A stretch of 63,987 nt of DNA, filler included, from Basidiobolus ranarum (Eukaryota): NCBI GenBank assembly GCA_040143965.1. It is 4 parts of 4 records of this genome, joined end to end, with 100 filler letters (N's around TTAATTAATTAA, not from the genome) between each part and the next. Parts side by side here need not be neighbours in the genome. Positions count along the whole stretch, not along the records: positions 16,099 to 32,078 come from JASJQH010000359.1; 3 more parts are not named here. One strand, given 5' to 3'. The notes under the pieces were generated by a model, which saw nothing but the letters and a program-made list of their open reading frames with translations, ran no database searches and was not told the origin of the DNA. Below are positions 1 through 48,247 of the stretch, in pieces; positions within the stretch are counted from its first letter, which is position 1; each line of letters begins with the position of its first letter. Position numbers and translations under genes: made by a program.

Positions 1-41
1 AGTGATACGGTTAATACGATAAATCCAAATAAATAGCTTCA

Positions 42-15998: not shown

Positions 15999-16098
15999 NN
16001 NNNNNNNNNNNNNNNNNNNNNNNNNNNNNNNNNNNNNNNNNNTTAATTAATTAANNNNNNNNNNNNNNNNNNNNNNNNNNNNNNNNNNNNNNNNNNNN
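15999..16098. other. Artificial contig-joining linker
   Basis: N44-TTAATTAATTAA-N44, 100 nt, with stop codons in all frames. Confidence 0.97.
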
Positions 16099-17025
16099 GG
16101 CGACTCAGCCCAGCGACACCCCCCCCCTCACCATGAAAAAGCAGTTACGCGCGATGGATCATCTATCTCTGATCCACCCCCAGTGAATGTAACCTCGCCC
16201 ACGCTGAAGTCGCATTCAGAAACTGATATTCAATACATATCTCAGGCCTCAGATATACCGAGCCCAACTTTGGGTCCGATCACCAGATCCCAACGTCTAG
16301 GCCTAAAGTACCCACATTTTGGAATAGGAGGGAGTCAGAATTCGACAGACTTGCGCCTTTCTCCCACCAAGCACCGTTTTCAAAAGATTCAAAACCAAAT
16401 ATTCACCAACCCACTTCTGGCACTATTTGTCAATCCATTTGCTAATGATGTGAACATTCTTTCCGATTCTGATCAAGTTTCACCCAATCCTGTTCAACCC
16501 AGTCGGGAGGTTTATCAGGATGAAACCAGTAAATTTGAAACCTACATACACCCAGACTTCATACGAGCGTTACCAGGTAGAGTGTGGCTCCCGGTAAATC
16601 CAAGGACAAGACGGTTTAATCTAGATGAAGGAGTAATAGAGCGTGAGGAATGTCTCACATCCTCTCTCTTCCCCAAAAATGAGTCTTCAATTATTTGTTA
16701 CCAAGGGAATCTGGGTGTTGTATCACAAAAATCGGAAAACACCGAGACAGCCATAGATACGACTCATACAGGTGTTGCTTATGATAGAACTAATCAGCAT
16801 TTGGTCTATGTCGCTGACCCTAATACTCCTGAGAGTGAAACTGGCTCCACGTTCCGTCGAAGAGGTACTGTACGTGGCACCGGAAGCTCCATCATTGAAC
16901 TGATAGGGGGAGCATTCCGTGGACTGGGTAGTTTTGAACATGAACCAACCAGTCCACACCTATCTATTCGTGATCCAAACCAGGACACTCGTAGATCCTC
17001 CGTATCTAGCGGATTGAGTACGTAA
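16099..17025 (+). CDS. 3' fragment of a gene truncated by the linker; S/T/P-rich tail, possibly of a CSC1/OSCA (Rsn1/Phm7)-type membrane protein
   Basis: The frame is open from the first base after the gap (GDSAQRHPPP...). The motif YIHPDFIRALPGRVWLP resembles the YxHP...P..W(I/L)P tail of fungal CSC1-family proteins. The family call is tentative. Confidence 0.55.
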   Translation, partial: GDSAQRHPPPHHEKAVTRDGSSISDPPPVNVTSPTLKSHSETDIQYISQASDIPSPTLGPITRSQRLGLKYPHFGIGGSQNSTDLRLSPTKHRFQKIQNQIFTNPLLALFVNPFANDVNILSDSDQVSPNPVQPSREVYQDETSKFETYIHPDFIRALPGRVWLPVNPRTRRFNLDEGVIEREECLTSSLFPKNESSIICYQGNLGVVSQKSENTETAIDTTHTGVAYDRTNQHLVYVADPNTPESETGSTFRRRGTVRGTGSSIIELIGGAFRGLGSFEHEPTSPHLSIRDPNQDTRRSSVSSGLST

Positions 17026-17314
17026 AAGCTCGGTGTATATATTTACCAAGTAGAAATATATGGGTACTTTATTTGGAGTCATGTTTCCCATTTACAATAC
17101 GAGATTTTTTGTTATTAAAACTTTCAATATTTTACTTTAACTAAAGTGAATTTCACTGGTGATATCGGTTTCGGAACTGAATATCCAGAATTCTGGGGAT
17201 TTTTAATTCACTCAACACTTGTAAATAAATACGTGCAAAAGTAACCAAACATAGCACCAGCTCAGTACCTTTCAATTTATCAGGGGAACATAGTAAGAAA
17301 TTTTCGGAAGATTA

Positions 17315-20300
17315 TTAATTCCACTGACAGTTGCAATGGCAATCCGATACTGGGCATTCATTATGTCTTTGGAACCATTCCAAAATATGAGAGGCATGGC
17401 CACCGTGTCGACACTTTTGACACCAAGTAAACCACATACCAAAATTAGTCGGTGAATTAACTATATCATTAAAAAGTCAATAAATATGCATTTCAAGCGC
17501 ACAAATCTAACATTGTATTACCTTGGCTCCCATCTGGTTGACCCCCAATAGATAATTTTTTAGTAGAATCCATTGGAGTACCCAAATTTAACAGGCAAAG
17601 CGAGCATCTTGGTAATGGTTTCCGACAACTAGGGCAGCAGGTAGACTAAGATTCGAACGCATATACATTAGCATGCTAAAGAATTACATATTAACGTATT
17701 GCTCAGAATTACTAACCCCTACTCTCTTGTTTGAGTCACCGCTGATACCTCCCACACCTATCCGCCGTCCATCTCTACCACGGTTACCAGGTGCAAGGGA
17801 TGAATGGGCGACGCTTTGGCTGCAGAAATTGCATCTAACATAGACTTGTGGTGGCGTAATATCTGCGGATCTAGCACCCATCTTCTTGCCTCGTGCAATA
17901 TCAAAGTGGGCACGAATATGGTATAATTGCCAGCGATCCAATAATAAGCGATAACTTGTAGTTAGGAAAGATATGGTAAGTAACATAATACAGAGGCCAA
18001 AGAGAATCAAGCTGCAACATACTTTTCAGTCCATTCGTGAACTCTTTGATCTTTGAATCTTCGAGGTACAGAATAGCTCATTACCAAACTTGCGGTTTGA
18101 ATATCACCAGTATTATTTACATATTGCTCCATTAGATCGGCACCTTGGGTTGTAAGTCCTGTTAGGATAAGACCCTCGACATCACCCGTAACAAGCATTT
18201 TAGAAACTGTAGAATCCACATAACCAACGAGCTGTAAACTATTTAATATGATGTACCGTCATGCGATTGGTAAGATGGAGTTGCTTACCTCGTCGTCGTT
18301 CAAAAATCTAATTGCCACGCCAAGACGGTCTCTTAACGGCAGTTCCTCATGCTCCAACACAACTTTCCAATCACCCGATGAGATATATCCAAAGATAGCT
18401 CTCAAATAGGGGTCAGTTAGCTCCAAGCTCAGAGCTCGACATAAATCCTGCCAAATTGTGGAGCTACGGCCTTCCTTGTTGGAATGGCCTGCCAGTGCAG
18501 TGGAGATCAGCTTGAGTCGCTCATCTAGGGCAATAAATATCTTCAGTTTCTAATAAATAATCTGATGCAACCCAACAAAATAACTACCCTTGCTATTGCT
18601 CAAGATTCTAATGGCTTTAGTGAAATCTGCATGAAACAAAGCCCAACCGGCAGCTTTTTCAAACTCGCCATTGAGCTCCAAACTATAGAATAGCTTATTA
18701 GTAATACACCTGCAAGCATACATCACCCGTGAGCAAACTTACTTCGCTAAGACTTTATCAAGTTCAGATCTATTGAATCCCCAACCACACATTATAAGTG
18801 CTAGTTTTCTTTGTAAAGTGCGTGAACTTGACACCATATAAACCTCGTCACTATCGGTACTCGTGCTAGCTGGTATGTAATTGTTGTTGGAATTTGTACC
18901 AGTACTAGGGGTACGTGCAGTGAGTTGAGATCTTCTCTTAGGTGAAAGTGCTTCACATTGGAGAATTCGGCTTAGAAATTGAAGATAATGAGTAATGGAA
19001 ACTACTAGGAAGGTTACCTCGAATATCTTCAAGCACGGTTTGTATTCCTTGAAAGCTGAAATCATAGTTTCCAATCTTGGCCTGACCAGCAGCTGTTAGC
19101 TCTTCAGCCTCTGTTGTATTGATGAGTGAAGTAAATAACAGAAATAGGTTTTGACGAAACGAATTAAGATGCATTTAAATGGAATTTTCAAAGAGGATAC
19201 GAGTTAACCACTCCCAAAGTTCCTTTAAAGGCCTCGATTCCGCGATAATAGGTAGATTTCCGATAGTCTATTAATGAAAAAATGAGCAAGTTAAAGCGCG
19301 GTACATTGCACTAGATGTTCACTTATTCTGAAAGGTCGATATACTTACAGTCATCGAATAGCCTTTGATGGCGCGATTTTTCATAACAACAGATATGTCG
19401 GACTGAAGATCTGCAGTCCCATTGGATTCAGATGCTATCTGCAAAGTTGATTTTGCGCTTTTAAACAATTTTTTCCCGCCCATATTACTATCCAGGGCTA
19501 GCTGAGCCATGAATCTTCCGAGAGCGTCGCTATTTTTCATCTCTTTTTCATCATCCATATTCGGAGTAGAGTCTTTGTGTAAATCCTCCATAGCATTTTC
19601 ATCTTCCGTCTCAATTTGAGAAATGTTTTTGTTACCAGCAATCAGTAGATTTCCGCTTGGTTTCCATGTGATTTTGAAGGATTCCTGGATTGTTACATTT
19701 TCAATCAAAGAATCCTTATTAACTGAAAGTAAATGATATGTAGAAGAGTTCGAAGAGTAGGGAACCCAAGCAAAGGAAGCGAGGGGTCTGGAGAATAGCT
19801 TTGCTAAAAGAAAAATAGAATGAGCGCATGCAACAAACGAGGCTGCTGAACTAGATATAAACGAAGCATACTTTGTCTACATTTCCAGAGTACAGGCACA
19901 TCACATTCGTCTTCTGGATTGCTATAGCCAATTGAGGCAGAGCTGGATTGAACGCTAGCTAGTTTATCCGAAACATTGCCGATTCCACCTACACCGACCG
20001 TGGTTCCTGAACCCATAACGTTTGAAGTCCCACCTACAGCGGCAGATTTTATTACACTACCTGTGTTGATCAAGTCGCCAGGTAACGGCACCCTAGCAGT
20101 GCTTAGAGTATTCCCGGTCATATAGCTGCTACCACCACTCATTAACATGCTATTTGTGTCAGCAAAATTTCCGTTGGCTCCATAGCCAGCAGAACTTCGA
20201 TTAGGATACAATGTTGAAGATGTGTAAGCCTTAGTCGTTCCTTCTTGAATATCCCAAATACGAACATAATTTGACTCCTTCCCGAGAGTAGCTAGAAGGC

Positions 20301-21836
20301 CCGATCTGCGTGGTGAAAAGGCCATATTTGATAAACCTAACGATCTAGTTGACCCATTGATTGTCAAAACGTAAAAATTCCATTAAGGATAAGGCATATA
20401 AGGATGTTGAATAAAGACAATCAGAAAATATGAAAAGGATATTGCTTCAGTAGGCTTTCGAATATCCCAGATTTTCACTACTCCATCTTCTGTGTGTGAT
20501 GCGAACCTATAGGGGTGAAATGGATCCACACTTATACCATAGATTGCCTTGGTAGCAAAAATCACACTTGGCGGACTGCTCGAATCCGCTATCATTGAGC
20601 ACGATAAGATTAATACAAGAATTGGCTAAATAAAAGCTTCGTATTTGATCAAACTTGCCTCGAACATCATATACTCGTAGCCACTTCAAGCCCATACCAG
20701 CAACTAGCTGTGATGGAGAGTCAGGAAACCACGCACAAGAGGTGATAGCCTCTGATGAGCCATATTGCTGAATAGGTCTAACGTCTTCGCTACGAGGATA
20801 ACTGGAGAATAAAATAAATGAGTAACTAACTCAAATACCATAAAATTTAGACAACTTGTACTCACGCAGATGAAACCATTTGCTTAAGTGGGTTCGTATC
20901 TGAAGGCAGTGGATTCATTGTCATTCTAGCTGGCTCTATTTTCACAATCTCTGGTAAGTAATAGACTTTGGTACATTTACAATATCCGTGGTGGAATTAC
21001 CGAATGTTGATGATTCGTTTCCATTGGTACGTATAGAAACCACCTTCTTGGGAGTTGAATGAGTTCCTTCGTTGTGAAAAAATGGACTTTTCTCCGCAGG
21101 AACACTTTTTCCAACACTTCCACTAAAGCTATCTTCTCGATTTAGAGTAGGTCTAAAGTTTCCTACTCCTGAATTGTTCGGAGCACCACGTGCCTGCTGT
21201 ACATCCCATATCATTAAACAGTAATCGTTTCGCACTTTGTCCAATCCTGTCGCTAGAAGCTTCGGCTCTGCATCAGAAAACGCCACAACATTACAAGCTC
21301 TAGAGTGGCGTATGTTAAAAGATGGATATGTTTGTTGCTGTGCAAATGACAAAGGTCTATTGAAGCTTTTATTTGTCGGAGATGCTATGTAAGGAGAAGA
21401 ATCGACGGGTGCACTGTTGCTCAATCGAACTAATAAGGTCCGTCCCGTTGTTAAACCGACGGCAATTAAATCTGGAAAGGAGGGATCTGGCGACCAGGCA
21501 AAACACTTAATTTGTAACAAATTTTATTTAGATCCAAACTTGCGGCTAGAAATATAAGTAGATTTACCTTCATTAAGGGAACGTCAGAATTAACCGCTAT
21601 CATGGAGATTTCAGGACTATCCCCGGCCATCTGTTGGTGAATAAAGTAAACGAGCCGATTACTGCTATTTAGTCGAGGCCATAGTCTATAGAAGTACAGA
21701 ACGGAATAAGCATGTTGGTTTTACGTACCCTAGGTGCCACCCATTCATAAAGTCTTAAATCTGTAGAACCAATAATAAATTGATTATGGTCCGGGTGCGG
21801 GGACCAAACCACTCTTTGGTTTCGAATGGTATTCAT
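17315..21836 (-). CDS. SEA4: GATOR2/SEACAT subunit Sea4/MIOS, multi-exon
   Basis: [14 protein letters not shown] start, WD40 segment RACNVVAFS...[54 protein letters not shown]-terminal Zn region [14 protein letters not shown] and [16 protein letters not shown]...[10 protein letters not shown]. Confidence 0.93.
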
Positions 21837-23528
21837 TTTTTAATAACTAATCGAAGAAGCAACACCACTCAAGTCGCCAAATAATACATCCAAATATTCC
21901 GCATTACCCATCGATTTGGATTATATTCTTAATGATGATCTTTACCCCAGTCGCAGCTAATTCTTCAAATTAATCAAAAATTACACTTTCAATTACAAAT
22001 TAACTATATTAATACCAATTGCAATACGTTACATGCACACTATTCTTTAGCAGATATCCAGGTGAAATTGGTTTTTCTACGGTCATAAACATCACCCAAT
22101 CACAGAGGAGGCAGCTTAAAAACATGAAGATGCTTGCTCTCATTAGTTGCCAAGTGACTACCTAAATCTACTCGAATCTCCAAAGCTAGTATATATTCAA
22201 AGACTTGTGTGAAAATACAACGAGCAATCAACAGGGACCTTACAGGGCTTAAGAAGGACTCTTGTATACGCGTACAGTGATGATGCCAAGCTAATGATAT
22301 TGCTATAACCAAATGATCTGCTAAATCAAGCCTCTAGCCAAACATCTCTTTCTTCGTGGCCAGAGGTAAAATTGCCGTGCTAAGGGTGAAGAAAATACAG
22401 ATATTTTGAAACATGATCAGGTTTTCATTTGAAGACAACGACTTCGATTATAAAAGCACTAAATTGGAATCGACAAAATAATCGTCTTCCAAAATATGAG
22501 TATTCATTGAAAAGGCATATCTGCACCAAGTTATTCAAGTCATACACAACATCAGAAATTGTGTACTAACATGCTTATGTATTCAACATATTTTCACAGT
22601 CCGAAGGGTATAAAGATATTAGTGGTAGTTTCGGAATTCCAGGTTATATCTTAATATCTGTTTTAACAACTGTTAACACAGTAGAATTTTTGAATTACGA
22701 ATTCCATTATGTCTTTGCCAAGTGCGTGAGAGGCCTGTTCGTATTACTCATCGAAAAGACTTCAAAGATTCTTCTCAATGCGCGATACTTGCTGACTAAC
22801 AAAATCCAAATTGTTCCTCTTTGACTATGTCTCCATATGATAGCTACCTCCGTTCTCTCTGCGGGATAGACACTTTTTGTTAGAAATTTTGATCATGTTC
22901 CTCAATAACTATAGCCATTTCTAAAGAATATTCTAACTTCACTAAAAAAGAAGACTTAATTTATACTCTATAGAAAGAAGTTATCCTTCTACTAGCAAAG
23001 GTAAATAAATCTATTACGAGTCATCATGAACGTAAAATATCTAGGAGAGAGATCAGGTCTACTGATAAACTTCCCGTCAAAAGTTATTGAACTCAGCAAT
23101 GTTAGATATCCTCCATATATGAGGCGAGTATGGATACTATCAAGTGGGTATGAGCACATGTATCGTTACAATTTGTTCTAATGATCCACAATCAAATATC
23201 ACCAATGAATATTTATTAACATGATCTGTGGTGAATGGAAGTTGCCGAATGGCTTCTATGCTGCTAACTCGGAATATTTCATGAGTGACTACTATTAGGT
23301 AGGTGGCTTGCGGTTTAGTAGATTTCAAAACCTATATGAATGGAATGCGTCTGAGGGGGTTTCAATAGCATTCAGTTTCAGTGGTTTATTTAAAGCATAA
23401 TAATTGAAGAAATAAAGTATTCATCTTATTAGTTGATTTGATTGGAGAAATCTTTTTTTCTTCTCAATATTATCAAGAATTGAGGATTGATACGACTAAC
23501 CAGTCTTTACTAAAGCTCACACTGAAAT

Positions 23529-24281
23529 ATGACAGTTTCTTTGGCAAATAAAGAGCTATTTGGTGGTGCGATCACCACCTATATCCCTAGTTCTTTCATC
23601 GACATAAGGTGAATTTCAACAGCATAAAGATGAATCTTACTTGTAAGCTTATTCCTTTTCTTTCAACAGTCAATTACGTGAAGTGCCAGACAACCAAGAG
23701 GTCTATGTAGATACTGACACTGACCAGAGTATTATTGTAGAATTATTAGAGTTGGTCGAGGAAGCTTCCGATGAAGAATGTGCCAAGTATGTTCAGATAG
23801 ATTCCATTTCTTCTAAAAATCTTAGCTGACCAAATTTACTTAGATATCATTTCAAGCAAATTGCCGAACACAATGATGCTTCGTCGGAGAATGAAGTAGT
23901 AAAATTAGTTACGCTAAGCGAAGCTGAAGTACCTAATCTACCGTAAGAGGAGAGAAACTGATTTTTTCACTAAAATTCCTACTGACTCTTATCTCTTGAA
24001 ATAGTTCGGATTGCATGAAATATCTACTTGTGGGAAGACAATCGGTCACTAAATATAACGAATCCGACCCTAATTCACGTAATGTTGTAAACATTTATTT
24101 GGCCGTATTCCGGATTCCCAGAATCACCACTGATATTATTGTAAGCTATAACCACCCAGTCGTTATTGGCACTACAAGCAGTAGTAGGGATACACAAGCA
24201 GGTTCAATAGATGAGGTAGAAACCAACTTCAAGAAAATCCTTGCTTCTTTTAACATCAACGATTGGTCACTTTTCTGTTGA
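23529..24281 (+). CDS. MOG1: Ran guanine-nucleotide release factor Mog1, 4 exons
   Basis: Spliced KELFGGAITTYIP...QLREVPDNQEVYVD...DQSIIVELLE, YHFKQIAEHNDA, LAVFRIPRITTDIIVSYN...INDWSLF. Confidence 0.92.
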
Positions 24282-24760
24282 AATAAATCGCCATTGTTTC
24301 TTGACCAAGGGTCTACCTTTACATGCAAAGTTCTATTCTACTGTGGATAGTTTGTATTGCGAGAGCTGAAGGCGAGGAAGAAGAGATCTATATGAAGATT
24401 CATCCTACAATCAGCTCTTAATTTCCGAGACTTGGTTACTGGGATCAAATGTCGATTAAGTACAGATTTCTGATATTTTGTAAACACTTTGAACTGGAAA
24501 GAATATTATTCTATTCAACCATGTCCGAGGCCTCATTCATATTTCAATATTTGTGAGCCGAGAGAGCCAAACTACTTGTTCATCTTTAAAAGGGCTCACA
24601 GTATTCTTTAAAATCAAATAATGGAAAAGTGCACTTTAAAAGTAAACTTCGATTTGAAATTTTAGTAGTATGATTGAGGCTTGGTGTATTGACCATATCA
24701 GATGAAGGGAAAGATATGTGAGTATGCTATTATATGGTAAACCAATCAGCCTTGATCAAT

Positions 24761-25581
24761 TTAGATGGAATCAGTAAGCATCTTGTTCAACTTGGTGACC
24801 TTTGAAGAGACCGACATGTCGATGGTCTTATCTCCAAATTCAATTACAAGTCCACCGAGAATGGAAGGATTGACCTTGTTTTGAACAGTAAGTTTCTTGC
24901 TACCGGCAAGAGTACCCTTGGTAAGGGAATCTTGAAGTTGTTTCAATTGAGCAGAGTTAAGAGACTTGGCTGAAGTGACAGTTACCAAAACTTCTCCACG
25001 GTGGGCCATCATAAGAGAGTTGAAAGAGTTAATAATTTTAGAGGTTTGGTTGAGACGACCATTTTCAGAAAGAAGATCGAAAAAATTCTTGGTTGTTTCA
25101 GTGAGTTTTTGTTCGCCGAGAAGAATATCAATACCGGCTCTCTTGTTTTTCTTCATAAGAGTAGGATTTTCAAGGAAGAATTGAACTTTGTCACTTTTGT
25201 CGATGATTTGTTTAAGCTTGGCTAATTCACCCTCAACAGCATCGAGTTGGTTCTTCTTTGCCGCAGCAGTGAAGAGAGCAGTAGCATAACGACCGTCAAG
25301 ACCAAATAAAGTTAAAGGAACCTATAACACTCTAGTTAGTCATGCCAAATATCAATTCCGAATAATAATAATTTCTAGAAGTAATGGTCTCCATAGATAA
25401 TAAAAACCAAGGAACTTTGAATACCTTTACTCGCTGGGCAGTAGCAAAGGTGCGGACTGAGCGCTGTCATATGGAAATTAAGTATAATTCAGTATGAGCC
25501 TATTTGGAAGTAAACTCATGAGCATTGAATATTTTAATAAAATATTACCAAAGGGGTAACTGCAATTCTAGCGAAGTTCAT
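24761..25581 (-). CDS. ATP5: Mitochondrial ATP synthase OSCP subunit, 3 exons
   Basis: Targeting peptide MNFARIAVTPL, then PLTLFGLDGRYATALFTAAAK, LLSENGRL, VTVTSA and KVNPSILGGLVIEFGDKTIDMSVSSK. Confidence 0.96.
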
Positions 25582-27305
25582 ATTTCTTAATATAAAATAT
25601 CAGGATAAGGAAGTAAAGAGGTATAAAATCAAGAGACAAGCCGAGTGAAAAGCAGTGTGCATAAGCCCTCATATTTAGTCACCCCAATAATCTAAAAAAC
25701 CCGCCCCACGTTAGACTTGCTAACGTTTAAATCGATTACAATTTAATCTACTTCTTTGTATGTGCTATGGTAGAAATCATCCCCAAGCTTTTGCTCGTCA
25801 CGCTGTTGGTAAACTCTTACCATTGGCCACCAGCCCTAGTTAGCAGTTTAACCATTTCATTTTAGAACTGACACGATCACAGAATAATAAACAAGGATCA
25901 AATAGTGCTTATTAGTGTCAAGGCAAGAACTACGAAGAACCCTCACAACGATAAATATTCCAGATTGTCTGGCGTTTCCGGGTGAAACACGTGCGACATT
26001 CAAGGTCTTGATATCTCTGTGATCGGAGAGCAAATGAAGTTCCCAACAACATTCAACAACTCCATCGATCATTAAGTTTTTTTTGTTGGTTGAGATGTGT
26101 TTAATGTTGCTTGTAAAACAACAGCAGAATCAGATCGAAATACAGATTTCGGTAGGTTATTTGACGATGCAATGCCCAAGTATTCCGGCAGCGGGAATCA
26201 ACAGTAGAATAAATTCATTTAAGCCTCAGCAAGAAATTGATATTCGTCTAATGCTTTCATTCTTAAAGTCCTCCTAACCCCTTTAACCCCAGTTACATGT
26301 CTTTCCATGCTCTAACTCAAAAGATTGCTCTCAGGTACTACCAATACGAGCTTTTAACCGCACTGTACATGTTGGAGCCATGGGAAAAAATCCTATTTAG
26401 TATCCATTTTCAAATTAATGGTAGTATGACATGAATTTTGTTGCAATTATAACTCCTTGACTCTCTGAATTTAGATGGCATATTGGCTACAATCATTTTG
26501 CTTCCTGTATATACTACCTGTATCTATCTTCCACCATACACCAGGGAGTTTGTACAGTATTTAGTGGATATTTTTTAGTACTTGCTATGTGTTTAAGAAT
26601 AGCCATAATAATCTACACTTGAATACTATAGCATCATTGTGGCTACTCAATCCAGTGTGGATACAGGTTGTACAATATCGCAGCGTTGCCCACCCAAGAA
26701 TAAATACGCAAAGGTTCATTTAGATCAATATTTCGTATGAACTATGGCAAATAGCGGCAAAAGCATTGATATCTACAAGAATGTAGATCATTTTGAGGTG
26801 TATGGTGTAACCAAAAAAAGTCTCTACATTGCAAGTGGTGTCAACCTAATAGCAAGGAGTTACTGCACTTCAAACCCGATTCACAATTAGGTTTCTACTG
26901 TTGTTATGTCCATAGAGCGCGAAATCCCAAGTAGTAATACCTCTGTACAGTGAAGATGAAAAGAGTCTTCTAATGGTTAGACCTGAAGCTCCACTTTCGT
27001 ATTTATATTTTCGTTCAAAGAGCTTCAATCTTGGTATTTGTGGGTATTCTTTGGACTTAAGATATAATCACAGCTCTAGGTAGTTTATCAATTTATTGGA
27101 GACTAGTGGTGACTTGGTTGGCAGAGATCAAGAGGCGAGTGAATTAGAATGGACTATTCAAAATTGAATAAATCGAAATCGATTGGTTCTACCAAGATCA
27201 CTCTCTGTATGAAATATGTATATGTAAATTTAGTAAACCAGTGGAAACATTAGTTAATAGGTAAACTCGTAATGAGGATTGATATATGTTAACGTTATAC
27301 TACAG

Positions 27306-28825
27306 TCAAACTTGGGAAATACAATCTTTAGGAAACATTCCTTTAAACTCTGAGTTACGGCTTCGATTGTATCCATATAACATCCCTGCAACTTCATCCA
27401 GGATAACAATTTCGTCGCCTTTATAAATGAATACCTCCTCCTCAGTTTGAGGTACGTGTGTTGCCAATGCTCGAACGGTTAGGTTTTGGTCACCTGCGCT
27501 TAATTTGGTGCGAGAGGAGGGCGAGTGTGACGCTTTCATCGGCTCTATTCAAAAACATTAAACTGTGTACATATCATCCAAGTACAACATCTAATATCCA
27601 TACCGATTGTAGTGTTCCTTGATTTGAAGCGGAATATCAAAAAACCTCCGATGGCAAGAAATAATACAACGCCGACAACGATACCAACGATGGCACCGAT
27701 GGAAATGGTGCTAGAACCGGAATTACCACTCATTCCACCGGAGAATGCTCCGTTTGTTACGTTCTCGTTCGTCATTCCTAGAGCTTCATTAGTTAGGCCC
27801 TTGTACATAGTCAAGCAAGTTTCTTACCTCCTTGGCATTGAGATAAATATTGAACTCCTTCACAGCGGGTGTTGAATCCGGAAGGGCGGCAAGAGAAATT
27901 GTTATCCTTAAGTTCGCATTTAAAACCGCTCGTTGTTTGTATATCACCAGAAAGCTCGAGATTGATGGCTGGAAGTGGGCCAGTAAGCAGGTTTCCTTGT
28001 AATCCGCTAATAAAGAACATGTATCAGAATATGTATAGGTGTATGAAGTAGATTAATTAGTGTTATTTTGATTTACAGGTAGTTCATGGCAATTTTCTTT
28101 ACTATGGTAATGGGAATGGGTCCAGTTAGGCGATTCTGGTTTAGATTTCTAAAAAATGCACTTGAGTCTCTGCTATAAGTGAACAGATATCGCACTTTAC
28201 TTACAAGTGGACAATAGGAGCATCGAAGAGTTCTGAGGGAATGGGACCCTGTAGCTGGCATTCAGAGCAACGGCTACAATGATAAAAGTTAGATGATATT
28301 TGATGGAGTATAGCATTCGACAGTACTCACAATACACTTAGCCTCTGAAGCCTTCCTATACCAGGCGGAATCTGACCCCTAATGGAAGACACTGACAAGT
28401 GACTAGATATTTAAGAAGCCCATTAGCAACCATGGATCAGTGTCTTGTACAATTTGTGATGCTTACAGTTCTGCTAGATACGATAGCTTGAAAATATCAT
28501 CTGGTATCTTTCCTCCCAGATTGTTTCTTTCTAGCATTCTGTGAAGGGTTGAGTTTAGTGCCAAGTCAATCCTACATCTTCATCACAATTATACATACAT
28601 ATTTGTGACTCGATTTCCAGTTTGGCAGCTCACACCGCTCCAGGAGCAACAATTTCCATTGTTGAAGTCATTCCAACCGGTCTGATTGAGCCATGCTGGA
28701 CCTGAAAGTGACGGGTACAATATGTTGCGAAGATAGTTGCAATCATCAGACAGAAACTGCGCGTTACAAAGAGGGATGACTAAAAGAGCCAATGCAACCC
28801 ATAATGATGATAATAGATAAGTCAT
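27306..28825 (-). CDS. Single-pass receptor-like protein: signal peptide, plant-type LRR ectodomain, TM helix, cytoplasmic SH3 (8 exons, ~367 aa)
   Basis: Exons 28825-28599, 28538-28467, 28402-28331, 28273-28205, 28148-28077, 28006-27828, 27777-27604 and 27544-27306 are all GT-AG and splice in frame. N-cap W...NCCSWSGVSC; repeats LERNNLGGKIP, LSVSSIRGQIP, CSECQLQGPIP, LNQNRLTGPIP, LQGNLLTGPLP; TM GAIVGIVVGVVLFLAIGGFLIF; SH3 RAL...EEEVFIYKGDEIVIL...GMFPKDCI. Confidence 0.85.
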
Positions 28826-29970
28826 ATTCAGTACAAATAGATTAGAAAATTTCTTGGGTTTGAGCAAACCTATCGAACCTTAAATACAATAGCGAGCAGC
28901 CATCGGGAGAGTTCATGTAATAAATCGATGATCGTATCAAGCTCCAGACATATCTTTTGTGAGTAGAAAATCAAACGAAGACCAGTCCTGAGCCATTCCA
29001 ATGCACCTTTTTGAATTTCCTGTTACTAATCTCTGTGTAAAAGACCACCTCCGACTACTATACATGAAATAATATGCTCTTTTTTGTCAGTATAAGCCTA
29101 TGTATGACAATTGAAATGCATTGGTAGGAGCACAAACCACCTTATCACCAAGAGCGATATCAAGTTCCATGTGTATCTAGTTGAGACATTCTATCACCAA
29201 ATATTCCTAGATTAAGGGGATTAGACCTCACGGCGATTAGGCCACAAATAGAGATTTAAATTGGTAGTAGGTGTATATTAACCGGAATCCATGTACTAAT
29301 CTAAACGCTCTATTTAGAGCCTTGCATAAGATGGGGATTTCCTGTAGCGTAGCTTGACCTGAATACTAGACTTATGTAATTACTATACATCACTGTACAT
29401 TGTTATAGCGATCCCCACAGCACTTCTACATCTAGAGACGTGAATGATTACTAGATGTTTCAATTAACTGCCACACTCTAACATAATATTGCCGCTGGTG
29501 GTCTAATTCCCAACACTTCAGTATTAAGCGAGAAAAGGGGGAGGCTCCGTATTAAGTACAGCTTTGTATTCTATCCTATCAAGTTTACACACTCTATTGT
29601 TCTGACATGCTCTTACATATATAATTCCTTCCTACATCACAAACTCCTGATCCGCTTGAACGGATGCGCTATCATGCACTATTAGCCAGGTCCTTCCCTA
29701 CAGTTCATCGGCACTCCATCGACACGATTACGAATACCCTTTTATTTGTTAATCGATTCGACATTGTTGACTAATTCCACACTCTGCCACAAATCTATAT
29801 ACGTAGCAACTGATTTTCATGTGCGCTGCTGACCCGCCATTGAATTAAACAATCACATGTTACGCAAGTGGCTCCGTCATGATATCGACTCTAATTGGCT
29901 GAAATTTATTTATACATTTCATTATTAAAATTTGCAATTATACAGTAGAGAGTGATGCGACTCTAGTAGA

Positions 29971-30993
29971 TTAGATATTTTTAATAATATTGTCAGCAGG
30001 CATGCCCTCGTAAGTGATCTGATAGACAACGTTGATGAAGGGGAATTCTTGAATTTTCTGCTTGTGTACCAAATAGTTATGAACCTTTTCAATAGTAATA
30101 GGACCTTGAAGTTTTTGTCCATTCAGCATTTCACGTTCAAGAACATCAAATGGCTTGCCGGTCTTCACGAAAGCTTCACCTAGCATACGGTTGCGTCCAG
30201 CGTAATAGAGTGTTATCATTTCTGCAACACCACAGCTTTCGTAGAAAGTTTCTTTCCTTACTTCTGGGTAAAAAGTTTTGGCAAACTTGATGATTTCCAT
30301 CAAGCCAATTCGAACTACAGCAGCCTTAGTGTTGCCACCCAAGTTGAGGCCGTCAATAATACCAGCAGCAATGCCCAGGATATGCTTCAAAGCACCGCAT
30401 ATCTCCACTCCAATGATATCGTTAATGATCGTTACTTTGAGATAAGAGGTACTAAACAGTTTTTTGAAGAGTTTTCCGTGCTTGCGAACTATAGTACCAA
30501 TAGTAGTTTCACAGAAGTTTTCGTTGGCAACCTCAGAAGCTACGTTAGCTCCAGACATAACGCTCACTTCAATATCCAGAATTTCTTGAATGATTTCCGA
30601 GAAAAAGCGAATACTACTGAATGAAGAATCAAGACCTTTGATCAATGAAATAGCCTTAGCATCAGGACGAATACGACCGACCATTCTACGAAGAGTTTCT
30701 TTTAAAAACTGAGGTGGAATAACAAACACGAATAATGTAGCTTCTTTGATGCATTCGATGAGGTCTGAGTTGGCAACAATATTCTCAGGGAGTTTGACAC
30801 CAGGTAGATACTTGACATTCTCGTGTTTTGTGTTAATGATATCAGTCAGGCTCTCTCCATCAATGAATTCTTCGTGAACCCACATGTTGACTTGGTCGTC
30901 GAATTCGTCGTACTTGGTGACATTACTACCAATTATCTTGGCTGCGGTGGAACCCCAGTTTCCAGAACCGATTATACAAACTTTCTCAGTCAT
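29971..30993 (-). CDS. GPD1: NAD-dependent glycerol-3-phosphate dehydrogenase family protein (divergent), intronless
   Basis: KVCIIGSGNWG, HENVKYLPG, AISLIKG, SGANVASEVA, GVEICGALK, FYESCGVA, GRN and LNGQKLQG. Confidence 0.9.
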   Translation of the reverse strand: MTEKVCIIGSGNWGSTAAKIIGSNVTKYDEFDDQVNMWVHEEFIDGESLTDIINTKHENVKYLPGVKLPENIVANSDLIECIKEATLFVFVIPPQFLKETLRRMVGRIRPDAKAISLIKGLDSSFSSIRFFSEIIQEILDIEVSVMSGANVASEVANENFCETTIGTIVRKHGKLFKKLFSTSYLKVTIINDIIGVEICGALKHILGIAAGIIDGLNLGGNTKAAVVRIGLMEIIKFAKTFYPEVRKETFYESCGVAEMITLYYAGRNRMLGEAFVKTGKPFDVLEREMLNGQKLQGPITIEKVHNYLVHKQKIQEFPFINVVYQITYEGMPADNIIKNI

Positions 30994-32078
30994 GGACAAA
31001 AATTAAGAGATTAATGGAAGTGGTAAAACAGAAGTTTATGGAGCAACCAGAGAGGTCTAAGCACCCTTTATATAGTTTTAGTAAGCTTGGTAAATTTGCG
31101 TATGCCATCTGATCAGAGTTAACTCTAGAACATCGATAAGTACACAATGGATCAAATCGGATATCATGTAAACGATTTCTCTTCTCTGCGTCATCATGGA
31201 ACAAACTGGCTGATAGAATGCCAATCACCAATTTCAGTGTAAAAAATAGGACAAATCTCGGGATTCTCTTTGGCTAAAAACCATCGAATTTCCAAGGGAT
31301 CTTGGGCTGATACCCTAATTCCTAAAATATTTAGCAGGCATATAATTCAAGGTCTAGTTATTGGCTACGACATGCTTAGTCTAGACAAAAATTTGTGAGA
31401 AGCCTCTAGATTTCTAACTTTGCTAGCTGGACCGTGATTATCTGGGAAATCAATATCCTTGTACTAGCTTTGAACAAACCTTAATGGCAAAGAGCATAAT
31501 GGATGTATTAGTGATGCAAATGGTTATAATAAACATGAAAACAAATCCACTCAGGCGAGGGATGGAAGGTCTACTAGTTGATCTGTAGGACCTAGATCCG
31601 GCAGTGCAATGCTGATAACCGTTTAAGATTTTATCCATGAAGTTTGCTGATTGCGAATGGTCAGTAGTCTAAAATCATTTAACATTCTCCCACACTTGTT
31701 CAAACAGCTGTCATTTACTAATCAAGTGAATGAAGCTTAGATAAACCATTTGTCGAAGTATTCATTTTTGGTATCTGGTTACAATGTCAGTTCACGGTGG
31801 AGCGTCGAAGCCGCTTAACTAAATCACGGTTGGAAAACCATTGTAGGTCCAAGCCGTGATGGATTCTGATCAACATTTCGACAGTGAACAAGTTAAGCAG
31901 TGATTGTGACCGCTATTTTCCGCTCAAGGCTACTAGCTTGGTGCTTAACAAACAGTAAGCTTAGTAGCCCATTTTTGAAGCTAAATCTGTGTATGATGCG
32001 AAAGACAATTCGGCTGAGCAGCGTCGGTAGTGGTACTTATGTAAGCTGCAAGCTCATGAGCGATCATTGTCTCTGTAT

Positions 32079-32178
32079 NNNNNNNNNNNNNNNNNNNNNN
32101 NNNNNNNNNNNNNNNNNNNNNNTTAATTAATTAANNNNNNNNNNNNNNNNNNNNNNNNNNNNNNNNNNNNNNNNNNNN
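32079..32178. other. Artificial contig-joining linker
   Basis: N44-TTAATTAATTAA-N44. Confidence 0.97.
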
Positions 32179-33378
32179 AACTGAGATTTTATTAATTAAA
32201 TGTATCTGGCAACCATGTCCACTGTACAATTGCTACTTTTAGATCTTGACTAGTGTTGAATGAATATCTGGATTCTTTAGTCTTATGCTCGCTTTCTCGA
32301 CCTAATAGTTTGTTTGGCATACGCTTTAGATCAGAAGATTTCAAGGATTTTTTTGGAATAGGCTTCCCGTAGTCTTCGAGTGCTGGTACATATCCAGCCC
32401 TTGTGGCATTTTGTCGGCACTGGTCATGATTGCAACTGTTGGGGTCGTGATCATGATGATCTTTATGGCTAGTATGAGTACTCTTGAATGTATTGGCTTT
32501 ATCTTTTGGAAGAGGAGCTTCCTTTGGCGAAGCTGGTACACTTCCAGCTGATTCCGAGTAGTGTTCACCAATACTTTTATCATCCTCACTATCCTCTTCG
32601 TCACTATTGTCTCTATCATCCGCATGGCCAGATCCATTTGCCATCCGTTTGCGTCTTTTAATTACAGAACGTTTCATACTAACCGGTCTGTGCCTTCCAT
32701 GGAGTTTATAATATAGTCCTAATGAATAGTGAATTTGGATCAGAAAAGCTACTAACAAGAAAGTCTAATGATTCTAAGAGTACCGCAAGCATTACAGATG
32801 GTGGCGCCAGCTTCATCCCGACGCCACAATGGCGTCGTTGTTGTATTGCAATTAGCACAGATAAGTGACTGTCGATTGATTTGATGCTGATTGAACGTTG
32901 GACAGCCACTACAAGATTTTGATCCACCGGTTCCATTACAATGACCGTCGCCGGGGCATGTGCCTGGGGCTTCAGAAGAACAAGAAGATTTCTTTGGAGT
33001 ATTGCGTTTAAGCCAGTGTGGACGTACTGCATTACGAGCCTTCATATATAATCCTAAAAATGTAACAAAAAGCAGTTAGTAAGTGAAATATGAGCCCAGG
33101 TTAGAAAAATTCCTAAAGATCGCCAACATACCACAAGCATTACAAATAGTATCTCCGTTAGGGGCTCTTCTCCATAAAGGTGTTGTGGTTGTACCGCAGT
33201 TGGCACATACTGTGGCTGAAACTCCACCATTGTCGATAGGTTTTTTTGTTTTGGTAGACTTTGAAGGAGAAGAGGATCTGGGTGAACCTGGGAGACTACC
33301 ATCTTCCTCCATTGTGTCTATATGCTCTTGGTTGTTTTGTGGATGTGTTAGTTTACTAACAGCAGCGGTGATAACCAT
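32179..33378 (-). CDS. sreA: Iron-responsive GATA factor, SreA/Urbs1/Fep1 family (3' end probably cut by the linker)
   Basis: Two fingers, [14 protein letters not shown]...CNACG and [14 protein letters not shown]...CNACG, flank the Cys-rich [20 protein letters not shown] segment, followed by [28 protein letters not shown]...CAG intron appears to end just before the gap. Confidence 0.9.
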
Positions 33379-48147: not shown

Positions 48148-48247
48148 NNNNNNNNNNNNNNNNNNNNNNNNNNNNNNNNNNNNNNNNNNNNTTAATTAAT
48201 TAANNNNNNNNNNNNNNNNNNNNNNNNNNNNNNNNNNNNNNNNNNNN
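48148..48247. other. Artificial contig-joining linker
   Basis: N44-TTAATTAATTAA-N44. Confidence 0.97.

What the first reader, a model, noticed from the sequence alone, without database searches (positions are those of the whole stretch)
27306..28825. Kinase-less fungal receptor: plant-type LRR ectodomain joined to a cytoplasmic SH3
The spliced product has a signal peptide, a plant-RLK-like N-cap (W...CCSWSGVSC), five LRRs of the LxxNxLxGxIP class, a Cys-containing C-cap, a G/S stalk, a GxxxG-rich TM helix and an intracellular SH3 instead of a kinase. Plant LRR receptors signal via kinases, and Dikarya are not known for such LRR surface receptors. I know of no characterised LRR-TM-SH3 receptor. 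It could represent an undescribed sensing or immune-like receptor system in early-diverging fungi that recruits effectors through SH3. The domains are seen in the sequence; function and novelty are inference.
Basis: partly seen in the sequence, partly recalled or inferred. Interest (0 to 1): 0.85.

Follow-up and report, generated by a model that had tools for sequence, protein, structure and literature searches.

The report
Fungal LRR membrane protein with SH3 tail
This is a real eight-exon gene of the fungus Basidiobolus ranarum that puts a small plant-style leucine-rich-repeat domain outside the cell and a divergent SH3 adaptor domain inside, a domain combination found so far only in this genus and of untested function.

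Summary
On the minus strand, 27306-28825 carries eight exons and seven GT..AG introns of 50-70 nt. The 367-aa product is letter for letter the NCBI protein K7432_007347 of Basidiobolus ranarum.

- **Ectodomain:** a signal peptide, a plant-type N-cap, five 24-residue LRRs and a four-Cys cap. It matches plant receptor ectodomains strongly and is the size of a SERK/BAK1 ectodomain.
- **Membrane and tail:** a G/S/N-rich stalk, one GxxxGxxxG helix and an 88-residue cytoplasmic tail follow.
- **SH3 call:** probable, not proven. Pfam scores are below cut-off, and my own AlphaFold model of the tail was poor and found no SH3. But 27 of 31 weak PDB hits are SH3 chains, and the ESM Atlas model superposes on SH3 domains at TM 0.73-0.79.
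- **Distribution:** only one other protein shares the C-terminal half, the B. meristosporus orthologue.

There is no gene family expansion, and the concave LRR face is conserved. This looks like a single, genus-restricted, kinase-less receptor-like protein rather than an immune receptor system. Expression could not be checked. Interest is moderate.

The parts
27306..28825 (-). Whole coding region: 8 exons, 7 introns, 367 codons plus stop
   Evidence: Splice model. The product is identical to P0001 (NCBI K7432_007347, B. ranarum).
28760..28825 (-). Signal peptide, residues 1-22 (cleavage inferred after C-N-A)
   Evidence: Kyte-Doolittle windows above 1.6 at residues 1-8 and helix 3-20 in the model. 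The cleavage site follows the -3/-1 rule and is an inference; SignalP was not available.
28610..28759 (-). Plant-type LRR N-cap, residues 23-72 (W51..C59 C60 S W S G V S C67)
   Evidence: LRRNT_2 scores 17.6 bits on exon 1, below the cut-off of 20.7. PDB alignments to the MIK2, FLS2 and BAK1 N-caps start at residues 39-51. Helices 27-40 and 43-47 appear in the model. 46 of 50 residues are identical in the orthologue.
27943..28609 (-). Five 24-residue LRRs, residues 73-192, spread over the end of exon 1, exons 2-5 (72, 72, 69, 72 nt, about one repeat each) and the start of exon 6. Introns 1-5 are all phase 2.
   Evidence: Repeat register and exon phases. LRR_1 scores 31.4 bits, above its cut-off of 20.6. 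PDB E-value is 3e-74. Block-mean pLDDT is 86-98 for residues 61-180. Foldseek matches SERK/BAK1 ectodomains at TMt 0.68-0.86.
27829..27942 (-). Cys-containing cap, residues 193-230 (C201, C210, C219, C228). It aligns as a degenerate sixth repeat.
   Evidence: Cys positions. Alignment to the module ends of P0109 reaches residue 219. 34 of 38 residues are identical in the orthologue. pLDDT is only 52-87 here.
27707..27777 (-). G/S/N-rich stalk, residues 231-254 (codon 231 starts at 27828)
   Evidence: Sequence. pLDDT is below 50 at 230-247. Only 7 of 24 residues are identical in the orthologue.
27632..27706 (-). Single transmembrane helix, residues 255-279, with G258-x3-G262-x3-G266 and G274 G275, followed by R-F-K-S-R
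   Evidence: Hydropathy up to 2.96 and helix 257-280 in the model. There are weak Pfam matches to TM regions of Syndecan, Podoplanin and Mid2, all below cut-off.
27486..27631 (-). Cytoplasmic juxtamembrane stretch, residues 280-308, Ser-rich (..KASHSPSSRTKLS..). It contains intron 7 (27545-27603).
   Evidence: 25 of 28 residues (281-308) are identical in the orthologue. It is disordered in both models.
27309..27485 (-). Divergent SH3-like domain, residues 309-367, at the very C-terminus
   Evidence: Pfam SH3_1 E 0.076 and SH3_2 E 0.16 in P0001; SH3_2 E 0.0073 over profile positions 2-54 of 55 in P0002; all below cut-offs. 27 of 31 PDB hits at E<=10 are SH3 chains. The Atlas model of 305-367 superposes on SH3 domains at TM 0.73-0.79 in 10 of 10 rows. 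My AF2 tail model is poor and gives no SH3 match.

Best explanation
The gene encodes a type I plasma-membrane glycoprotein of Basidiobolus. Outside the cell it carries a small, SERK-sized plant-class LRR domain (N-cap, five repeats, Cys cap) on a flexible G/S/N stalk. A single GxxxGxxxG helix crosses the membrane. Inside is a short conserved Ser-rich segment and a terminal SH3 domain whose usual proline-peptide contact residues are mostly replaced.

The most likely mode of action is a kinase-less surface sensor or co-receptor. The conserved concave LRR face binds a conserved extracellular protein or peptide, or pairs with another surface protein. Engagement or clustering, possibly through the helix, then positions the SH3 to recruit one specific cytoplasmic partner. 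This is how the yeast membrane SH3 proteins Sho1 (which binds a Pbs2 peptide) and Fus1 (which has non-PxxP targets) organise MAPK and polarity factors.

Shown: the gene structure, the LRR fold class and the single helix. Probable: the SH3 fold and the topology. Inferred only: ligand binding, oligomerisation, partner recruitment and any signalling output.

I put the architecture at about 0.85-0.9 and the sensor-scaffold mechanism at about 0.45. The figure below is for the whole statement.
For: **Gene model.** The splice model equals an independent NCBI annotation. A colinear orthologue exists in B. meristosporus, with a single matched stretch covering query residues 15-367.

**Conservation.** Both halves are conserved while the stalk is not:
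- N-cap: 46 of 50 identical.
- LRR1-3: 64 of 72.
- Cap: 34 of 38.
- Juxtamembrane: 25 of 28.
- SH3: 45 of 59.
- Stalk: 7 of 24.

**Ectodomain.** It is a plant-class LRR. The model is confident. SERK1, SERK2 and BAK1 ectodomains are covered at TMt 0.68-0.86.

**Topology.** There are only two hydrophobic segments, with basic residues after the second.

**SH3.**
- Two Pfam SH3 models hit the same stretch in both orthologues, below cut-off.
- 27 of 31 and 21 of 30 weak PDB hits are SH3 chains, aligned end to end.
- The Atlas model gives TM 0.73-0.79 to SH3 domains in 10 of 10 rows.
- UniRef's own name for both proteins is 'SH3 domain-containing protein'.

**Native fungal gene.** GC3 is 0.416, against 0.411 and 0.387 in the neighbouring GPD and OSCP genes. 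Introns are short, and the neighbours are housekeeping genes.

[quoted passage not shown] The Sho1 SH3 binds a Pbs2 peptide (PMC5823434, passage).
Against: - No RNA evidence could be obtained, so joint transcription of the LRR and TM/SH3 exons rests on annotation and on conservation in one other species.
- Every SH3 sequence score is below its curated threshold.
- My own AlphaFold models give the tail a pLDDT of 30-48 by ten-residue block in the whole protein. The tail folded alone has mean pLDDT 51.1.
- Foldseek on that tail model found 0 matches at E<=0.001. Its top rows were mostly four-stranded beta-sheet blades of propeller proteins, not SH3.
- In the HMMER alignment to HCK, the ALYDY motif aligns to A-L-A-T-H (A-V-E-T-H in the orthologue), no WW pair is present, and the Tyr of P-S-N-Y aligns to Cys. 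The domain may therefore bind no proline peptide, or nothing at all.
- No ligand, partner, localisation or phenotype is known.
- The orthologue's annotated model lacks the signal peptide and most of LRR4.
- Only two sequences exist, so conservation has no genome-wide baseline.
Confidence: 0.5

Rival explanations
1. It is a surface adhesion or wall-contact protein rather than a signal transducer. The LRR domain binds a wall or matrix component or another cell. The SH3 only ties the protein to cortical actin patches or the endocytic machinery, for placement and turnover.
For: Many SH3 domains nearest in the Atlas structure search belong to endocytic and actin adaptors such as SLA1-like, BAR-SH3, EPS8 and NCK. 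The stalk-plus-helix region weakly resembles Syndecan, Podoplanin and Mid2 TM regions, below cut-off. The gene is single-copy with a conserved ectodomain.
Against: Nothing separates this from the sensor reading. The Atlas neighbours reflect the generic SH3 fold, not a subfamily. The tail lacks the canonical proline-peptide contacts that endocytic SH3 domains use.
Confidence: 0.25
2. This is the first reader's reading: a member of an undescribed immune-like pattern-recognition receptor system of early-diverging fungi, with LRRs that detect microbes or hosts and SH3-recruited effectors.
For: The ectodomain is of the class used by plant pattern-recognition receptors and their co-receptor BAK1. 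Fungi are reported to lack classical LRR receptors almost entirely (PMC2939053, passages), so a hidden class would matter. Basidiobolus lives among gut microbes (recalled).
Against: There is one gene per genome and only two proteins in all. No paralogue or relative in another fungal genus was found: 2 of 18 candidates, 22 hits of which 2 are fungal, 2 of 532 candidates, and no locus in metagenome or prokaryote contigs. The beta-strand face positions of LRR2 and LRR3 are identical in the two species, and LRR1 differs only at T74S, N75A and M77V, the opposite of diversifying selection. These searches need shared 5-residue words or near identity, so distant relatives are not excluded.
Confidence: 0.08
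3. The main product is a secreted, soluble plant-like LRR protein of the kind described across fungi. The TM-SH3 exons are an annotation artefact, a minor isoform or a neighbouring small gene.
For: Reading through intron 6 (27778-27827) meets a stop after four more codons (..QCQGGKKLA*). This would give a 235-residue secreted LRR protein. Secreted plant-like LRR proteins occur patchily in Ascomycota, Mucoromycota and Chytridiomycota (bioRxiv 10.1101/2025.08.22.671746, section 18). No RNA data were available.
Against: Intron 6 has clean GTAAGA..CTAG ends and is only 50 nt long. Exons 7 and 8 have no start codon context or signal of their own, and would encode a helix plus SH3 with no way into the membrane. 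The TM, juxtamembrane and SH3 parts are conserved in frame and in the same order in the orthologue. Two annotation pipelines joined them.
Confidence: 0.07
4. The C-terminal 60 residues are not an SH3 domain but another small beta-rich domain. The protein would then be an LRR receptor-like protein with an unclassified tail.
For: All Pfam SH3 scores are below cut-off. The best PDB E-value for an SH3 chain is 0.02-0.03. My AF2 tail model is a four-strand meander with mean pLDDT 51.1 that matches mostly propeller blades, with 0 hits at E<=0.001.
Against: The weak hits are overwhelmingly SH3 (27 of 31) and align over the whole domain to its last residue. The ESM Atlas model superposes on SH3 domains in 10 of 10 rows at TM 0.73-0.79. 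All six listed named feature neighbours are SH3 clusters, though at scores of 0.79-0.83, which is lead level only.
Confidence: 0.1

Closest known systems
Plant SERK/BAK1 co-receptors (LRR receptor kinase subfamily II)
   Same: Signal peptide, LRRNT_2-type N-cap with CxWxGVxC, five plant-class 24-residue LRRs, a hinge and one TM helix. The model covers SERK1, SERK2 and BAK1 ectodomains at TMt 0.68-0.86. BAK1 gives single-stretch phmmer E-values of about 4e-14 over residues 39-184. Domains tend to sit on separate exons in both (PMC3061892, passages).
   Different: There is no kinase domain. The stalk is G/S/N-rich rather than the Ser-Pro-rich SPP hinge. The cap has four Cys residues. Sequence identity is only about 26-32%. 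The host is a fungus.
Plant LRR receptor-like proteins (RLPs)
   Same: A plant-class LRR ectodomain, one TM helix and no kinase.
   Different: RLPs usually have many more repeats and a short tail without a folded domain (recalled). Here the tail ends in an SH3-like domain.
Fungal secreted plant-like LRR proteins (ZtLRR and 'sLRR' relatives; bioRxiv 10.1101/2025.08.22.671746)
   Same: A small LRR domain in a fungus whose nearest structural matches are plant receptor ectodomains such as BAK1 and FLS2. Distribution across fungi is patchy and includes Mucoromycota and a chytrid (sections 15 and 18 read).
   Different: Those proteins are described as secreted, single-domain proteins acting on plant immunity. 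This one is membrane-anchored with a cytoplasmic domain, and its host is not known as a plant pathogen (recalled).
Saccharomyces cerevisiae Fus1
   Same: A type I membrane glycoprotein (PMC2132759, passage) with an SH3 whose canonical surface is altered and which binds non-PxxP targets. It has Cys where aromatic residues are usual (PMC5823434, passages). Here Cys363 aligns with the Tyr of P-S-N-Y in HCK.
   Different: Fus1's ectodomain is short and O-glycosylated, and is not an LRR. Its long cytoplasmic region and the C-terminal position of its SH3 are recalled, not checked.
Fungal osmosensor Sho1
   Same: A membrane protein whose cytoplasmic SH3 recruits a specific partner, a Pbs2 peptide (PMC5823434, passage). 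It gives a model for signalling without a kinase domain in the receptor.
   Different: Sho1 has four TM helices (PMC4411306, abstract in the search listing) and no LRR ectodomain.
LRR-plus-one-TM proteins of a chytrid, two zygomycetes and Postia placenta (Soanes and Talbot 2010, PMC2939053)
   Same: Rare fungal proteins with a Pfam LRR and one TM helix, normally one per genome and mostly in early-diverging lineages (passages). P0001 would be scored the same way, because its SH3 falls below Pfam cut-offs.
   Different: Those five were reported to have no other domain. Their identities are in supplementary tables that I could not open, so kinship is unknown.
Unnamed giant multi-module LRR proteins from environmental contigs (for example P0109, 1160 aa)
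   Same: They contain repeated modules of N-cap, about five or six LRRs and a Cys-containing end. These modules align with residues 35/36-219 of this protein at 34-35% identity. They are the highest-scoring relatives of the ectodomain outside Basidiobolus.
   Different: They are 1160-7821 aa long with 5-23 matched stretches, and none matches beyond residue 219. The four I scanned, P0109, P0135, P0152 and P0154 (the last two), have no SH3. Their organisms are unknown.

Membership tests
Plant-class (LRRNT_2-capped) extracellular LRR domain | Tandem 24-residue repeats LxxLxLxxNxLxGxIPxx | tested here: met
   Five repeats in register at residues 73-192. LRR_1 scores 31.4 bits against a cut-off of 20.6. 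phmmer gives E 3e-74 to MIK2, and all 60 rows shown are plant LRR proteins.
Plant-class (LRRNT_2-capped) extracellular LRR domain | N-terminal cap matching Pfam LRRNT_2 (PF08263) | tested here: inconclusive
   17.6 bits on exon 1 alone and 13.6 bits in the whole protein, against a cut-off of 20.7; only profile positions 24-40 of 41 match. The CxWxGVxC motif is present, PDB alignments to plant N-caps begin at residues 39-51, and the model has two cap helices.
Plant-class (LRRNT_2-capped) extracellular LRR domain | Curved solenoid fold superposable on solved plant ectodomains | tested here: met
   Block-mean pLDDT is 86-98 for residues 61-180. Foldseek gives 127 matches at E<=0.001, the top rows are all plant LRR proteins, and SERK/BAK1 ectodomains reach TMt 0.68-0.86.
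LRR receptor kinase (LRR-RLK, including SERK) | Cytoplasmic protein kinase domain | tested here: not met
   No kinase family appears at E<=1 in Pfam for P0001 or P0002. The tail is only 88 residues long.
LRR receptor kinase (LRR-RLK, including SERK) | Single TM helix between the LRR and the cytoplasmic part | tested here: met
   One hydrophobic segment at residues 255-279 and helix 257-280 in the model. No dedicated TM predictor was available.
SH3 domain (Pfam SH3_1, SH3_2, SH3_9) | Score above the curated Pfam cut-off | tested here: not met
   SH3_1 scores 13.1 bits (cut-off 22.9). SH3_2 scores 12.1 bits in P0001 and 16.4 bits in P0002 (cut-off 21.8).
SH3 domain (Pfam SH3_1, SH3_2, SH3_9) | Small five-strand beta-barrel fold | tested here: inconclusive
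   My AF2 models are poor here, and Foldseek finds no SH3 match. The ESM Atlas model of residues 305-367 superposes on SH3 domains at TM 0.73-0.79 in 10 of 10 rows.
SH3 domain (Pfam SH3_1, SH3_2, SH3_9) | Sequence likeness to solved SH3 domains over the whole domain | tested here: met
   27 of 31 PDB hits at E<=10 are SH3 chains. The best are Shank3 at E 0.029 and HCK at E 0.072, aligned to the last residue. With a two-sequence profile, 21 of 30 hits are SH3 chains. Each hit alone is not significant. That the chains are SH3 domains is read from their names and lengths.
SH3 domain (Pfam SH3_1, SH3_2, SH3_9) | Canonical proline-peptide contact residues (ALYDY Tyr pair, WW, Pro and Tyr of P-x-x-Y; motif names recalled) | tested here: not met
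   In the HCK alignment, ALYDY aligns to A-L-A-T-H (A-V-E-T-H in the orthologue), there is no WW, the Pro is kept, and the Tyr aligns to Cys363. The Shank alignments show the same A-x-x-A-H and F-P-x-D-C pattern.
Fus1-like type I membrane SH3 protein | Type I topology with a cytoplasmic SH3 of non-canonical surface | tested here: inconclusive
   Topology and altered surface are predicted here. These features of Fus1 come from passages of PMC2132759 and PMC5823434.
Fus1-like type I membrane SH3 protein | Sequence homology to Fus1 | not tested
Sho1 osmosensor | Four TM helices before the SH3 | tested here: not met
   There is only one internal hydrophobic segment.

The most novel reading that the evidence does not exclude
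Basidiobolus has wired an LRR ectodomain to the cytoplasm in a third way. Plants use a kinase and animals a TIR domain. Here a terminal, non-canonical SH3 would turn ligand-driven clustering at the surface directly into recruitment of a polarity or MAPK scaffold. If so, the few 'LRR plus one TM, no other domain' proteins counted in early-diverging fungi in 2010 may hide the same sub-threshold SH3. That would define a small, overlooked class of fungal surface receptors.
Probability: 0.25. Interest if true: 0.75.

Novelty: new variant of a known kind. Interest (0 to 1): 0.45.

Why it matters
Fungi are held to lack classical LRR surface receptors almost entirely (PMC2939053, passages; repeated in PMC13618815, passages). 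How they sense neighbours at the cell surface remains poorly understood.

A conserved protein that joins a SERK-like ectodomain to an SH3 adaptor gives a concrete, testable candidate for kinase-independent LRR signalling. It also shows that a Pfam-threshold census would miss the cytoplasmic domain.

The case is limited. It is one gene in one genus of a hard-to-manipulate fungus, with no expression or functional data.

Tried and rejected
1. **AlphaFold of the tail alone**, with the orthologue as its only alignment row, gave mean pLDDT 51.1. Foldseek on it gave 0 matches at E<=0.001 and mostly propeller-blade rows. This is inconclusive, not evidence against SH3.
2. **A PDB profile search with alignment A3** used all 346 columns of the orthologue. 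It returned only LRR proteins and says nothing about the tail. I repeated it properly with A4.
3. **The exhaustive phmmer search** was swamped. There were 60122 hits at E<=0.001. Among the 150 listed, only P0002 covers the whole protein. The other 149 are 1160-7821-aa LRR giants matching only within residues 7-219. It cannot show whether distant LRR-TM-SH3 proteins exist.
4. **Word-indexed searches** for the tail and the C-terminal half found only the two Basidiobolus proteins.
5. **Scans of metagenome and prokaryote contigs** found pattern matches (122 and 52 stretches) but no relative by tblastn.
6. **Three resources were unavailable:** RNA runs, the whole genome and earlier findings. Expression, paralogue counts in the genome and selection tests were therefore not possible.
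7. **Transfer of the LRR part from a plant or bacterium** was considered.
   - For a native gene: composition (GC3 0.416) and the short introns look native.
   - On nearest relatives: the top five rows (unnamed environmental proteins) are 33-37% identical, P0109's aligned modules are 34-35% identical, and solved plant ectodomains are about 19-32% identical. I built no tree.
   - The origin is left open.
8. **Genomic context as a clue to function** was rejected. The neighbours are housekeeping genes: GPD, ATP synthase OSCP, Mog1, MIOS-like WD40 and a GATA factor.
9. **No paralogue lies in the window** (tblastn).
10. **No complex prediction was run,** because no binding partner is claimed.
Full report
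**Observation.** The feature lies on the minus strand.
- I read the three frames and placed seven GT..AG introns of 60, 64, 57, 56, 70, 50 and 59 nt.
- They join eight exons: 28825-28599, 28538-28467, 28402-28331, 28273-28205, 28148-28077, 28006-27828, 27777-27604 and 27544-27306. Together they form an open 1104-nt CDS.
- The 367-aa product is identical to a database protein, P0001. NCBI names it 'hypothetical protein K7432_007347 [Basidiobolus ranarum]' and UniRef names it 'SH3 domain-containing protein'.
- The organism is an early-diverging fungus of the phylum Basidiobolomycota.

**Anatomy.** Only two hydrophobic segments exist: residues 1-~22, followed by C-N-A|Q-F, and residues 255-279.
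- Residues 23-72 hold the W..CCSWSGVSC cap.
- Residues 73-192 are five 24-residue repeats of the plant class.
- Exons 2-5 are 72, 72, 69 and 72 nt, about one repeat each, and introns 1-5 are all phase 2.
- Residues 193-230 carry Cys at 201, 210, 219 and 228.
- A G/S/N-rich stalk follows (231-254).
- The helix has G258, G262 and G266, with R-F-K-S-R after it.
- The 88-residue tail has a Ser-rich stretch followed by about 59 terminal residues.

**The ectodomain is well supported.**
- Pfam LRR_1 passes its cut-off (31.4 bits). LRR_8 and LRRNT_2 do not. LRRNT_2 reaches 17.6 bits on exon 1 alone, against a cut-off of 20.7.
- phmmer against PDB sequences gives 120 hits at E<=1. The 60 shown are all plant LRR proteins, led by MIK2 (3e-74), FLS2 and GSO1. 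BAK1 matches as one stretch over residues 39-184 at about 4e-14.
- AlphaFold with a 22-row alignment gives block-mean pLDDT of 86-98 for residues 61-180 and a helix at 257-280.
- Foldseek finds 127 PDB matches at E<=0.001. The model covers SERK1, SERK2 and BAK1 ectodomains at TMt 0.68-0.86.
- The domain is therefore a SERK-sized plant-class LRR.

**The tail is probably an SH3 domain.**
- *For:* Pfam SH3_1 (E 0.076) and SH3_2 (E 0.16) hit residues 312-364 of P0001. SH3_2 (E 0.0073) covers profile positions 2-54 of 55 in the orthologue. All are below cut-off.
- *For:* Of 31 PDB hits at E<=10, 27 are SH3 chains aligned to the last residue, the best being Shank3 at E 0.029. A two-sequence profile gives 21 SH3 chains of 30 hits; the rest are eight GAPDH chains and one other.
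- *For:* The ESM Atlas holds this protein. Its model of residues 305-367 superposes on SH3 domains in 10 of 10 rows at TM 0.73-0.79. All six listed named feature neighbours are SH3 clusters, at lead-level scores of 0.79-0.83.
- *Against:* My own AlphaFold runs give the tail a pLDDT of 30-48 by ten-residue block in the whole protein, and the tail folded alone has mean pLDDT 51.1.
- *Against:* Foldseek on the tail model returns no match at E<=0.001 and mostly propeller-blade rows.
- *Ligand site:* In the HMMER alignments, ALYDY aligns to A-L-A-T-H, no WW pair is present, the Pro is kept, and the Tyr of P-x-x-Y aligns to Cys363. If it is an SH3, its ligand site is non-canonical.
- *Precedent:* Passages of PMC5823434 report such a surface for yeast Fus1, including Cys at usually aromatic positions.

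**Relatives.**
- Searching proteins of 138-2000 aa with the tail gave 2 hits among 18 candidates.
- Searching with residues 186-367 gave 2 hits among 532 candidates.
- In both cases the hits were P0001 and P0002, the B. meristosporus orthologue (346 aa, 76% identical).
- The whole protein gave 22 hits at E<=1e-5 among 4865 candidates of 201-643 aa. Two were Basidiobolus and the rest were plants, a green alga or unnamed metagenome proteins. None had an SH3 family in its precomputed list, and two had kinase families.
- The exhaustive search gave 60122 hits at E<=0.001. Its top 150 hold only P0002 as a full-length match. The other 149 are giant LRR proteins matching within residues 7-219.
- One of these giants, P0109, has repeated N-cap-LRR-Cys modules that are 34-35% identical over residues 35/36-219. 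P0109, P0135 and two metagenome proteins (P0152, P0154) have no SH3. The organisms of P0003, P0004 and P0109 are not named.
- Scans of metagenome and prokaryote contigs found no relative, and the window holds no paralogue.
- These methods see only fairly close relatives, so distant LRR-TM-SH3 proteins are not excluded.

**The gene looks native and constrained.**
- GC3 is 0.416, against 0.411 and 0.387 in the adjacent GPD and OSCP genes.
- Neighbours are ordinary fungal genes.
- Identity to the orthologue by segment:
  - N-cap: 46 of 50.
  - LRR1-3: 64 of 72.
  - Cap: 34 of 38.
  - Juxtamembrane: 25 of 28.
  - SH3: 45 of 59.
  - TM helix: 17 of 26.
  - Stalk: 7 of 24.
- The strand-face positions of LRR2 and LRR3 do not differ between the species.
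- Both halves being conserved in one frame argues for one protein. The conserved LRR face argues for a conserved ligand rather than an arms race.

**Mechanism.** I commit to a kinase-less surface sensor or co-receptor. The LRR face binds a conserved extracellular protein or peptide, or a partner receptor. The GxxxGxxxG helix may mediate association. The terminal SH3 recruits a specific cytoplasmic partner. Only the anatomy is shown; binding, clustering and output are inferred.

The precedents are fungal membrane SH3 proteins:
- Sho1 has four TM helices (PMC4411306, abstract in the listing), and its SH3 binds a Pbs2 peptide (PMC5823434, passage).

The rivals are:
- an adhesion or anchoring role;
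- a mainly secreted isoform, because reading through intron 6 stops after four codons;
- a tail that is not an SH3.

**Comparison with what is known.**
- *Fungal LRR receptors:* Soanes and Talbot (PMC2939053, passages) found LRR-plus-one-TM proteins in only four of 49 fungal genomes. The four species were a chytrid, two zygomycetes and Postia placenta. None of these proteins had another domain.
- P0001 would have been scored the same way, because its SH3 is below threshold. Their supplementary tables, which I could not open, may bear on kinship.
- *Secreted fungal LRRs:* A 2025 preprint (10.1101/2025.08.22.671746, sections 15 and 18 read) reports secreted plant-like LRR proteins across fungi, with BAK1-like predicted folds. 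A plant-class LRR domain in a fungus is therefore not new in itself.
- *Chytrid LRR kinases:* They are mentioned in PMC13618815 (passages).
- *LRR-TM-SH3 in print:* I found no paper describing such a protein. Two phrase searches returned 0 papers each. Related searches returned nothing on it, judged from their listings.
- *Review of fungal immunity:* The review PMC10197012 has no occurrence of 'cell surface' or 'SH3', and its three LRR mentions, in two passages, concern NLRs.

**Verdict.** This is a new variant of a known kind: a receptor-like LRR protein with an unusual cytoplasmic adaptor, restricted as far as can be seen to Basidiobolus. Interest is moderate, at 0.45. The architecture is unusual and relevant to how fungi sense their surroundings. 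But it is a single gene without expression, partner or phenotype data, and its SH3 rests on weak though concordant evidence.

Noticed in passing
window 15999-16098, 32079-32178, 48148-48247: Three blocks, each of two 44-N runs separated by 12 bases, recur about every 16 kb. The stretch between the first two blocks (16099-32078) is 15980 bases, exactly the 'longest contig' recorded for P0001. The window therefore seems to be pieced together or masked at regular intervals.
   Followed up: partly
window 27778-27827 (intron 6, minus strand): If intron 6 were retained, the frame would stop after four more codons (..QCQGGKKLA*). This would give a 235-residue secreted LRR protein without the TM helix and SH3, resembling the secreted plant-like LRR proteins reported in other fungi.
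   Followed up: no
window 28077-28609 (exons 2-5 and introns 1-5, minus strand): Exons of 72, 72, 69 and 72 nt each carry about one LRR, and introns 1-5 are all phase 2 at the same repeat position. This fits growth by exon duplication. It also parallels the tendency toward one domain per exon described for plant SERK genes (PMC3061892, passages).
   Followed up: partly
P0002 (B. meristosporus orthologue), aligned to residues 1-22 and 145-170 of P0001: The orthologue's annotated protein lacks a hydrophobic N-terminus and most of LRR4; 11 of 24 positions are gaps and 4 of 24 are identical. This is probably a mis-called start and a skipped exon rather than a real loss, but no DNA was available to check.
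   Followed up: no
window 29974-31002 (-), 24764-25321 (-), 24000-24278 (+), 20945-21523 (-), 32755-33075 (-): Neighbouring open frames match ordinary fungal genes. They are NAD-dependent glycerol-3-phosphate dehydrogenase, ATP synthase OSCP subunit, Ran-interacting Mog1, a MIOS-type WD40 protein and a GATA zinc finger. None has an evident functional link to the LRR gene.
   Followed up: partly
proteins P0003-P0151, for example P0109: Very long proteins from unnamed environmental contigs consist of tandem modules. Each module has an LRRNT_2 cap, about five or six plant-class LRRs and a Cys-containing end. They are the closest relatives of the Basidiobolus ectodomain outside the genus. Their organisms and function are unknown.
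   Followed up: partly
window 27531-27872 (+): A 114-codon stop-to-stop frame runs antisense to the TM and stalk exon. It is most likely a by-product of the composition of the sense strand.
   Followed up: no
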